DNA of 11,057 bases, taken from IMG/VR virus record IMGVR_UViG_2923360383_000006. One strand, written 5' to 3'. Made by a program: the position numbers and the translations under genes. Each line of letters begins with the position of its first letter. Within the stretch, counting starts at the first letter, position 1. The notes under the pieces are model-generated. The model did no database searches, was not told the origin of the DNA, and worked only from the letters and a program-made list of their open reading frames with translations. This document shows positions 8,957 through 9,643 of this stretch, piece after piece. Source of the stretch: a virus. Taxonomy: Duplodnaviria > Heunggongvirae > Uroviricota > Caudoviricetes.

Positions 8957-9643
8957 TTACTCTTTGTCTCCAATAACTAACTTAAAATCCCTGTTTTTTT
9001 GCGGGGATTTTGGATTCATCCCCGACTCCTTAAGCCATCTCTCTATAGTCCCAACTACAGGGACATCATTCCATTTATTGCGTAAGTGCGCGTATATCTC
9101 TGCAGATAGCCCGGGTAAACTGGCATTAGGGTATTTTTTCCAAGTGTTACAAGCTATAGATAACGCTGTTGATTTATGCCTGTTTGTTTTTCCTTTCTTT
9201 GCTTTACTACGGTCTTCACTGATAATTTTCTTTACATTAGCTATATCACGTACTGATTTTAATAAACTCTCCGACACTAAAACCGCATATCTTTCACGTA
9301 ACTGGTCTGCCAGTCTGTTGAAACCAAGAACTTCAAATATAATAGCAGCTTTCAAAACATCATTGAATTCTGAATATACACTATTAAATTTTTTATCAAT
9401 ATCATCACCATACCCAGCACATACAGAAATATTAACCTTTAAATCCTTATTTTCTATCTCTGACGATAATGATAATCTCTCCTCCAGAGACATTTTAGAT
9501 GGCGTGATATTTGCCATATCGCATATCGTTTTTTTTACAAAAGCAGACGCCAGCTCATCTCTAATATAATCTGCAATAGTATTAATATCCTTCGCATCAT
9601 TATGGTCAAATTCAATTGCAGCAATGATTTTATTTTCTGACAT
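8957..9643 (-). CDS. Hypothetical protein (228 aa), low-GC cargo gene between int and the HTH regulator
   Basis: ATG at 9643 with GGTGG upstream; overlaps the int stop by 14 nt. Markedly AT-rich relative to neighbours (by eye roughly one third GC versus about half). Possible HTH-like C-terminal segment (SLPGLSAEIYAHLRNKWNDVPVVGTIERWLKESG). No family recognised. Confidence 0.65.
   Translation of the reverse strand: MSENKIIAAIEFDHNDAKDINTIADYIRDELASAFVKKTICDMANITPSKMSLEERLSLSSEIENKDLKVNISVCAGYGDDIDKKFNSVYSEFNDVLKAAIIFEVLGFNRLADQLRERYAVLVSESLLKSVRDIANVKKIISEDRSKAKKGKTNRHKSTALSIACNTWKKYPNASLPGLSAEIYAHLRNKWNDVPVVGTIERWLKESGMNPKSPQKNRDFKLVIGDKE

What the first reader, a model, noticed from the sequence alone, without database searches (positions are those of the whole stretch)
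8957..9643. Low-GC 228-aa cargo gene between integrase and regulator, with its own terminator
The gene is strongly AT-rich relative to the island, overlaps the int stop (so is co-expressed with int), and is followed by its own terminator. The int-proximal slot in satellites often holds accessory or anti-phage cargo. The sequence matches nothing I recognise, so it is a candidate single-gene defence/abortive-infection determinant or a novel regulator.
Basis: inference. Interest (0 to 1): 0.65.

Follow-up and report, generated by a model that had tools for sequence, protein, structure and literature searches.

The report
Integrase-coupled DNA-binding regulator of a phage satellite
The 228-residue gene is real, but it is a fixed part of the integrase–alpA control module of an E. 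coli phage satellite rather than free cargo: it probably encodes a DNA-binding switch protein with a swappable sensor head, which may explain how such satellites sense their helper phage.

Summary
The ORF at 8957-9643 (minus strand) is a real gene. It has 35% GC, against 50% for int, and its start overlaps the int stop by 14 nt. No Pfam, NCBIfam, PADLOC, PDB or PHROG match was significant.

The window is an 11.4-kb Gram-negative PICI satellite inserted at tRNA-Ile in E. coli.

The slot is not a free cargo hotspot. Every related island examined carries a member of one protein superfamily between int and the alpA-like regulator. These islands come from E. coli, Klebsiella, Salmonella, Pectobacterium, Serratia and Morganella.

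The protein has two modules:
- A conserved, very basic C-terminal domain (pI 10) has a winged-helix-like predicted fold.
- An acidic N-terminal head occurs in at least 6 unrelated versions and is exchanged by recombination at the domain boundary.

The 141-bp spacer between the gene and alpA holds four phased copies of AWYCAGAT-like sites, 20-21 bp apart. Other protein classes have different phased repeats or palindromes at the same place, while Int and the AlpA helix-turn-helix stay nearly the same.

It forms a strong hairpin but has no U-tract.

Best reading: an int-coupled, sequence-specific regulator of alpA. The closest known analogue is the PICMI "iolg" gene. Nothing found here supports a defence role.

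The parts
8957..9643 (-). Gene X: 228-aa protein (WP_053008507.1), stop codon at 8957-8959
9230..9643 (-). N-terminal module (residues 1-138). It is acidic (net charge -7 over residues 1-135). It comprises a hypervariable head (about residues 1-90) plus a semi-conserved long helix. An otherwise 93-98% identical island has a non-homologous segment here.
8960..9229 (-). C-terminal module (residues 139-228): a basic arm (SKAKKGKTNRH) plus a three-helix winged-helix-like domain. Net charge is +11 and pI 10 (computed over residues 136-228). It carries the family-defining motif TW.KYP.AS...T...W.K...P...F.LV.
9630..9643 (-). 14-nt overlap between the start of X and the end of int. The Shine-Dalgarno GGTGG lies at 9649-9653, inside int.
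8949..8958 (-). Repeat site 1 (AAATCCAGTT), which begins inside the stop codon of X
8929..8936 (-). Repeat site 2 (ATCCAGAT), 20 bp after site 1
8909..8916 (-). Repeat site 3 (AACCAGAT), 20 bp after site 2; left arm of the inverted repeat
8889..8896 (+). Repeat site 4 (AACCAGAT, inverted); right arm of the inverted repeat
8880..8925 (-). 18-nt imperfect inverted repeat. It has no U-tract after the stem.
8627..8815 (-). alpA-like HTH_17 regulator, the gene that the repeats precede
9630..11057 (-). P4-type tyrosine integrase (Arm-DNA-bind_3 + Phage_integrase), upstream of X and translationally coupled to it

Best explanation
Gene X is a core regulatory gene of the integration/regulation module (int-X-alpA) of a Gram-negative phage-inducible chromosomal island (PICI). 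It is not cargo.

Shown:
- The gene is real and its start overlaps the int stop.
- Its product has a conserved, strongly basic C-terminal domain with a winged-helix-like predicted fold.
- Its N-terminal head is acidic and interchangeable.
- The 141 bp between X and alpA carry four phased copies of a class-specific motif.
- Islands with another X class carry other phased repeats or palindromes there, although Int and the AlpA helix-turn-helix are nearly unchanged.
- Recombination exchanges either the head alone or the whole protein together with its repeats.

Inferred:
- X is made constitutively with Int.
- Its C-terminal domain binds the repeats as a dimer or oligomer.
- Binding controls transcription of alpA, the master activator that a helper phage must switch on, and/or controls read-through from int-X into alpA.
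- The variable head determines which signal flips the switch, most plausibly a helper-phage protein.
- Whether X represses or activates cannot be decided from sequence.
For: Fold and charge:
- The C-terminal domain has net charge +11 and pI 10; the family median is +8.

Synteny:
- The order int, X, a spacer of about 125-145 nt, then AlpA holds in every locus examined, across 6 genera.
- It holds with two integrase types, two replication modules and two capsid modules.

Repeats:
- In the window, four sites spaced 20, 20 and 21 bp were matched by 0 of 300 shuffles.
- The L005/L007/L017 class has four CTGGCTA-type sites at 21-bp spacing, also 0 of 300.
- L014 and L015 each have two 18-bp palindromes.
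- The long motifs occur nowhere else in their loci.

Co-variation:
- The window and L006 share AlpA (92% identity, identical HTH) and Int (95%).
- They differ in X and in the repeats. The breakpoints are at 8808 and 9684.
- L018 differs from the window only in the head, at 9230-9654.

Conservation:
- The arms of the inverted repeat are nearly invariant across 12 diverged loci, while the loop and flanks drift.
- The changes seen in the arms are symmetric.
- The 7 non-synonymous differences between close alleles all fall in residues 20-126. The C-terminal domain carries only 2 differences, both synonymous.

Literature:
- How helper phages induce alpA in Gram-negative PICIs, and whether a repressor exists, is an open question (PMC6092414).
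Against: - No DNA binding has been demonstrated.
- Repeats and X are physically adjacent, so their co-variation could reflect linkage alone. Only one recombinant (L006) separates X from AlpA.
- The repeat statistics are weak in some loci: L006 19 of 300, and L008 and L011 not significant. The count-only test is modest.
- No consensus promoter is called in the spacer.
- The third helix of the domain is rather conserved between classes that have different repeats.
- In PICMI115, deleting the positional analogue iolg abolishes excision (PMC10803314). This argues against a simple repressor model.
- Classic PICIs such as EcCIMP1 have a different small gene in this position (PMC11773190).
Confidence: 0.5

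Rival explanations
1. X is an excision or recombination cofactor. Like IOLG of Vibrio PICMI satellites, it would act with Int and AlpA in the excisive complex rather than as a transcription factor. This is not exclusive of the main explanation: P2 Cox and 186 Apl do both (the Cox/Apl comparison is from general knowledge, not tested here).
For: - PICMI iolg overlaps int by 1, 4 or 13 nt, lies between int and alpA, is expressed with int and is essential for excision (PMC10803314). X overlaps int by 14 nt.
- Winged-helix proteins binding phased direct repeats are typical of excisionases (general knowledge).
- The last 8-30 codons of int are exchanged together with X.
Against: - The repeats lie about 2.3 kb from the att junction. 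The att sites are a 49-bp repeat at L001 5856-5904 and 17238-17286.
- The long class motifs are not found near att.
- Islands with a 95% identical Int and the same att site use different X classes.
- There is no similarity to AlpA or HTH_17 excisionases.
- Homology to PICMI IOLG could not be tested.
Confidence: 0.2
2. X is a single-gene anti-phage or abortive-infection determinant carried as cargo next to int.
For: - The gene has low GC.
- It has a hypervariable head with at least 6 unrelated versions.
- It is probably expressed constitutively with int.
- PICIs are reported to carry immune genes at their 5' or 3' ends (PMC11364771).
Against: - No PADLOC match for X or for 9 relatives; a tenth, the L006 protein, gave only a weak sub-significant match to the mad1 model (E 0.0012, 17 bits, no stretch passing).
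- No effector-like domain is present. The conserved part is a roughly 75-residue basic winged-helix-like domain.
- The slot always holds the same superfamily.
- Cognate phased repeats lie in front of alpA.
Confidence: 0.1
3. The hairpin is simply a transcription terminator insulating alpA from int-X. The other repeats would be sites for AlpA, a host factor or a helper-phage factor. X would act elsewhere, for example on helper-phage DNA or proteins as an interference factor.
For: - A stable hairpin lies about 40 nt after the stop codon in most class-1 loci.
- L016 has a canonical hairpin followed by a T-run.
- The symmetric arm changes also preserve RNA pairing.
Against: - There is no U-tract in the window, and the scan does not call a terminator.
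- The L005/L007/L017 class has phased direct repeats and no stable hairpin (z 0.15).
- The arms are conserved in sequence, no one-sided (G-U) changes are seen, and the loops vary.
- The AlpA HTH is the same in islands whose repeats differ.
Confidence: 0.15

Closest known systems
IOLG (integrase-overlapping gene) of Vibrio PICMI satellites (PMC10803314)
   Same: - It lies between int and alpA.
- Its start overlaps the int stop (1, 4 or 13 nt there, 14 nt here).
- It is co-expressed with int.
- It is highly diverse between elements (13 families there).
- Its function is unknown.
- It behaves as a core life-cycle gene rather than cargo.
   Different: - The host clade (Vibrionaceae) and the satellite family differ.
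- Sequence relationship could not be tested.
- No DNA-binding domain, modular head or operator array has been described for IOLG.
- The experimental phenotype there is loss of excision, which was not tested for X.
Stl/Rpr master repressors of Gram-positive PICIs (SaPIs)
   Same: - Each is encoded by the satellite next to int.
- Each is a DNA-binding protein with variable parts that, in Stl, bind different helper-phage proteins.
- Each would couple the satellite cycle to the helper.
   Different: - There is no sequence similarity.
- The DNA-binding domain is C-terminal and winged-helix-like rather than an N-terminal HTH.
- The gene is co-directional with the regulated gene rather than divergent.
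- Repressor activity and phage-protein binding are not shown.
phrog_5215 (PHROGs family of unknown function)
   Same: Distant family members from Serratia, Morganella and E. coli match this profile at E 1e-11 to 1e-12 over the C-terminal two thirds. The same proteins are found by the profile of X homologues.
   Different: The window protein itself does not reach significance against phrog_5215. The PHROG carries no functional annotation.
Bifunctional winged-helix excisionase/repressors of P2-like phages (Cox, Apl) and the AlpA/Vis/TorI family
   Same: They are small basic (winged-)helix DNA binders in integration modules that act on phased repeats (from general knowledge).
   Different: - X is 2-3 times larger and has an extra variable head.
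- Profile similarity to AlpA is absent.
- Its putative sites are not at att.

Membership tests
PICMI-type integrase-overlapping gene (IOLG) | Located between int and alpA, same strand | tested here: met
   the same order is found in all related loci
PICMI-type integrase-overlapping gene (IOLG) | Start codon overlaps the end of int | tested here: met
   14-nt overlap at 9630-9643. In distant classes (L014-L016) a gap of 95-210 nt separates the genes instead.
PICMI-type integrase-overlapping gene (IOLG) | Required for helper-induced excision | not testable with these tools
   Needs a deletion mutant and a helper phage (PMC10803314 for the PICMI case).
PICMI-type integrase-overlapping gene (IOLG) | Sequence homology to a PICMI IOLG family | not tested
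All homologues found are from Enterobacterales.
Stl/Rpr-type satellite master repressor | Sequence-specific DNA-binding domain | tested here: inconclusive
Stl/Rpr-type satellite master repressor | Divergently transcribed from the operon it represses, with operators in between | tested here: not met
   X and alpA are co-directional. Candidate operators do lie between them.
Stl/Rpr-type satellite master repressor | Inactivated by binding a helper-phage protein | not testable with these tools
   Only the modular, swappable head is seen.
Known anti-phage defence systems (PADLOC-DB 2.0) | Match to a defence protein model | tested here: not met
   No hit for X at E up to 10. None for 9 of 10 relatives; the L006 protein gave only a weak mad1 match (E 0.0012, 17 bits, no stretch passing).
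Intrinsic (rho-independent) terminator | G+C-rich stem-loop followed directly by a U-tract | tested here: not met
   The stem is present (dG -21.6). The tail is UCUUCAAG, and no call is made by the scan.
AlpA/Vis/TorI (HTH_17) excisionase-regulators | HTH_17/Phage_AlpA profile match | tested here: not met
   No Pfam hit. hhalign probability against the AlpA alignment is 0.1%.
phrog_5215 | Significant match to the PHROG profile | tested here: inconclusive
   X itself gives no hit. Distant relatives linked to X by profile search do match.

The most novel reading that the evidence does not exclude
X and its relatives are the missing helper-phage sensor of a large group of enterobacterial PICIs.

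The model is a modular switch protein. Its constant winged-helix domain sits on a phased operator array in front of alpA. Its interchangeable head recognises a specific helper-phage protein.

This would be functionally analogous to SaPI Stl but structurally unrelated. It would also be the enterobacterial counterpart of the enigmatic PICMI IOLG. Head swapping would then re-target satellites to new helpers.
Probability: 0.27. Interest if true: 0.8.

Novelty: new variant of a known kind. Interest (0 to 1): 0.6.

Why it matters
How Gram-negative PICIs detect their helper phage and switch on alpA is an acknowledged open question (PMC6092414; PMC10803314 asks the same for PICMI, and asks what IOLG does).

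This family offers a concrete, testable candidate. It combines:
- a defined protein;
- a defined 141-bp DNA target with four sites;
- natural head-swap and operator-swap variants that can be used directly in reporter, EMSA and transfer experiments.

It also corrects a tempting annotation error. A low-GC 'hypothetical' gene next to int in these satellites should not be counted as defence cargo.

Tried and rejected
Searches that found nothing useful:
- Pfam, NCBIfam, PHROGs and PADLOC on X gave nothing significant. The only hits were Sipho_tail and a tape-measure family, both weak and probably chance.
- PDB sequence searches with X, with the N-terminal domain and with two profiles gave nothing.
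- Pfam on 73 family members gave no consistent domain.
- Foldseek against the PDB with the C-terminal domain gave no significant hit. The afdb50 library was not available.
- The genome-contig scan returned only 3 loci.
- The second homologous-protein search, with a 73-sequence alignment, returned only close relatives because of the candidate cap.
- The Rfam scan gave nothing in or next to X.
- tblastn of X against the phage collection gave no match.
- The Cell 2022 paper on PICI immune hotspots is not held, so which genes it tested at the 5' end could not be checked.

Ideas considered and rejected:
- Chance ORF: rejected on codon-position pattern and homologues.
- The plus-strand 201-aa ORF: rejected as a shadow ORF.
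- The repeats as Int arm sites: rejected, because Int is the same in islands with different repeats, and the sites are far from att.
- The repeats as AlpA sites: rejected, because the AlpA HTH is the same in islands with different repeats.
- The similarity of the motif to the end of the att core (CACCAGATA): judged coincidental.

Full report
**1. Context**

The window is identical to E. coli HS13-1 chromosome positions 2122251-2133307. It lies inside an 11.38-kb island bounded by a perfect 49-bp direct repeat. The repeat is the 3' part of a tRNA-Ile gene and a copy of it upstream of nfeF (L001 5856-5904 and 17238-17286).

All main genes are on the minus strand. In transcription order they are:
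- a P4-type integrase (9630-11057);
- the target gene X (8957-9643);
- an AlpA-like HTH_17 protein (8627-8815);
- an Icd-like protein;
- a DUF4222 protein;
- a D5-type primase;
- SSB;
- a ClpP-protease/major-capsid fusion;
- a DUF1441 protein.

This is the Integration-Bro-Replication-Late layout of Gram-negative PICI satellites. It matches the tRNA-Ile2/CLP_protease type mentioned in PMC10111431.

**2. The observation**

The ORF is real.
- RefSeq calls it WP_053008507.1.
- It has full-length homologues at about 50% identity in Citrobacter, Raoultella, Klebsiella and Pectobacterium.
- Two E. coli alleles differ at 17 sites. Eleven are third codon positions and 10 are synonymous.
- The antisense 201-aa ORF is not conserved.

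GC is 0.351, against 0.504 for int. The ATG at 9643 lies 14 nt inside int and is preceded by GGTGG.

A strong hairpin follows at 8880-8925 (dG -21.6 kcal/mol, z -5.8). It has no U-tract, and the terminator scan does not report it.

No Pfam, NCBIfam, PHROG, PADLOC or PDB-sequence match is significant.

**3. Not a free cargo slot**

The same integrase (95-100% DNA identity) occurs in 87 complete E. coli genomes, and this X allele occurs in 58. The others I inspected do not carry unrelated genes in the slot. L005, L006 and L007 carry proteins of 206-245 aa, and L018 one of 266 aa. They are only 20-25% identical to X (53% for the L018-type protein), yet share its C-terminal motif TW.KYP.AS...T...W.K...P...F.LV.

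An exhaustive profile search of 1.84 billion representative proteins finds only 154 clusters. Almost all are 190-280 aa, and the match nearly always ends at the protein's C-terminus.

The order int, X, a spacer of about 125-145 nt, then AlpA is found in every locus examined. These come from Klebsiella, Salmonella, Pectobacterium, Serratia and Morganella, plus a further E. coli locus. The order holds with either of two integrase types, with D5-primase or AAA_25 replication modules, and with fused or separate capsid and protease genes. All source names are 'hypothetical protein'. Distant members match phrog_5215, a family of unknown function.

**4. Anatomy of the protein**

The AlphaFold model has mean pLDDT 78, rising to about 90 in the C-terminal domain. 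It shows:
- an alpha/beta head (residues 1 to about 108);
- a long helix (109-151);
- a three-helix domain (157-206).

The C-terminal 93 residues have net charge +11 (pI 10.05), and the N-terminal 135 residues have net charge -7. Family medians are +8 and -5.

On the same C-terminal domain class there are at least 6 heads with no detectable mutual similarity. Between close alleles, all 7 amino-acid changes fall in residues 20-126 and none in the C-terminal domain.

**5. Recombination units**

I compared the window with otherwise 93-98% identical islands.
- L018 differs only at 9230-9654, which is the head plus the last codons of int.
- L006 differs at 8808-9684, which is the whole of X plus the spacer. 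Its alpA is retained at 94% identity.
- L005 and L007 differ at 8759-9663 and 8759-9722 respectively, which is X, the spacer and the first codons of alpA.

The C-terminal domain and the spacer are therefore always inherited together, while the head moves independently.

**6. The spacer**

Reading from the stop codon of X, the 141-bp spacer contains AAATCCAGTT, ATCCAGAT, AACCAGAT and an inverted AACCAGAT. Spacings are 20, 20 and 21 bp. No chain of four phased sites arose in 300 dinucleotide shuffles. The hairpin is the inverted pair formed by sites 3 and 4.

Other X classes have different arrays at the same place:
- four CTGGCTA-type direct repeats at 21-bp spacing in L005, L007 and L017 (0 of 300 shuffles);
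- CCCCTGG/CCAGGG sites at 19-bp spacing in L006 (19 of 300, weak);
- two 18-bp palindromes, ATATAAACCGGTTTATAT in L014 and ATATAAAGGGGTTTATAT in L015;
- one long inverted repeat followed by a T-run in L016.

The long motifs occur only in that spacer within each locus.

AlpA is 92% identical, with an identical helix-turn-helix, between the window and L006. Int is 95% identical. The repeats therefore follow X rather than AlpA or Int. That said, only this one recombinant separates X from AlpA, and physical linkage is a confound.

In 12 diverged class-1 loci, including IMG/VR contigs, the two arms are nearly invariant while the loop and flanks drift. The inverted repeat starts 35-44 nt after the stop codon in 13 of the 14 class-1 loci with one, and at nt 21 in L039. 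The few arm changes are symmetric: AACTAGTTA/TAACTAGTT in L025 and AACCAGTTA/TAACTGGTT in L038. No one-sided changes are seen. Symmetric change fits a palindromic operator, and it also fits an RNA stem, so this test does not discriminate between them. The L005 class has no stable hairpin at all (z 0.15). This argues that the common denominator is the repeats and not a terminator.

**7. Mechanism**

The best-supported reading is as follows. X is translated together with Int in the resident state. It binds the phased sites through its basic winged-helix domain, and so controls alpA. AlpA is the activator whose helper-dependent induction starts the PICI cycle (PMC6092414, PMC11773190). The interchangeable head is the obvious candidate for the input, which would be a helper-phage protein.

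The direction of control is undecided. The consensus scan calls no promoter within the spacer itself in any locus scanned; in L016 its only nearby call ends at the X stop codon, just upstream of the inverted repeat.

The only experimental data on a positional analogue come from PICMI iolg. It overlaps int and is constitutively expressed, and excision is lost when it is deleted (PMC10803314). That points to a positive role, as activator or excision cofactor, rather than to a plain repressor. I therefore keep an excision-cofactor rival at 0.2. It is supported by the coupled exchange of the Int C-terminal tail. It is weakened because the sites lie 2.3 kb from att.

A defence role (0.1) has no positive evidence beyond low GC, variability and the general statement that PICIs carry immune genes at their ends (PMC11364771).

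**8. Comparison and novelty**

X is a positional analogue of PICMI IOLG, and homology was not tested. It would work like an Stl-type sensor-regulator, but it fails the Stl membership tests on sequence and on gene orientation. It is not a member of HTH_17/AlpA, nor of any PADLOC family.

I found no paper in the held library that describes this family or a regulator between int and alpA in enterobacterial PICIs. The Cell 2022 paper on PICI immune systems could not be read.

I rate it a new variant of a known kind: a satellite life-cycle regulator or int-overlapping gene. Interest is moderate to high because it makes the question of how helpers induce alpA directly testable.

Noticed in passing
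window 8159-8231 (+): Sub-threshold Rfam match to the SymR antisense RNA (34.7 bits against a gathering score of 61, E 0.0015). It starts just beyond the start codon of the minus-strand Icd-like gene (7955-8158) and ends in a G+C-rich hairpin. It could be an antisense or immunity RNA like those reported in PICI Bro zones.
   Followed up: no
window 1923-2016 and 4458-4551: A 94-nt direct repeat at 89% identity. One copy lies between the capsid fusion gene and DUF1441, the other just downstream of ssb. It may be a repeated regulatory or packaging element.
   Followed up: no
window 8226-8508: A second replaceable segment. It holds the plus-strand YlcI/YnfO (DUF3950) gene at 8304-8486 and is non-homologous between islands that are 95-98% identical on both sides.
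   Followed up: partly
window 8825-8854: A perfect 9-bp inverted repeat (CGTATACCT/AGGTATACG) lies directly upstream of the alpA ribosome-binding site. In relatives, the corresponding block pairs GTATCACC with GGTGATAC, which would sequester the alpA Shine-Dalgarno sequence. This may be translational control of alpA.
   Followed up: partly
window 9644-9722: The last 8-30 codons of int are exchanged together with the X cassette. As a result, the Int C-terminal tail co-varies with the X class.
   Followed up: partly
L008, L009, L010 (Klebsiella-type PICI): The same island, with identical gene order and the same X, sits in three different contexts: after the P2-like tail genes and ogr, after phage lysis and terminase genes, and near hdeA. 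This is reminiscent of helper-embedded PICIs.
   Followed up: no
window 1339, 2560, 4086, 6876, 7558, 11042: The motif AWYCAGAT occurs 9 times in the window against 1.5 expected (0 of 200 shuffles). Six copies lie outside the X-alpA spacer, one of them in the first codons of int. A similar CACCAGATA ends the att core. This is unexplained and may be coincidence.
   Followed up: partly
L019 1365-2006 (phage vB_EcoM-705R4, ON470624.1): A distant relative of the family (29% identity to the Serratia member, E 2e-11) is encoded in a lambdoid phage record. It lies upstream of the ninG-like, ybcO and Q genes and is not next to an integrase.
   Followed up: no
L001 5856-5904 and 17238-17286: The island's att sites, a 49-bp perfect repeat of the tRNA-Ile 3' part, lie just outside the window on both sides. 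The int gene points inward, as in PICIs.
   Followed up: yes
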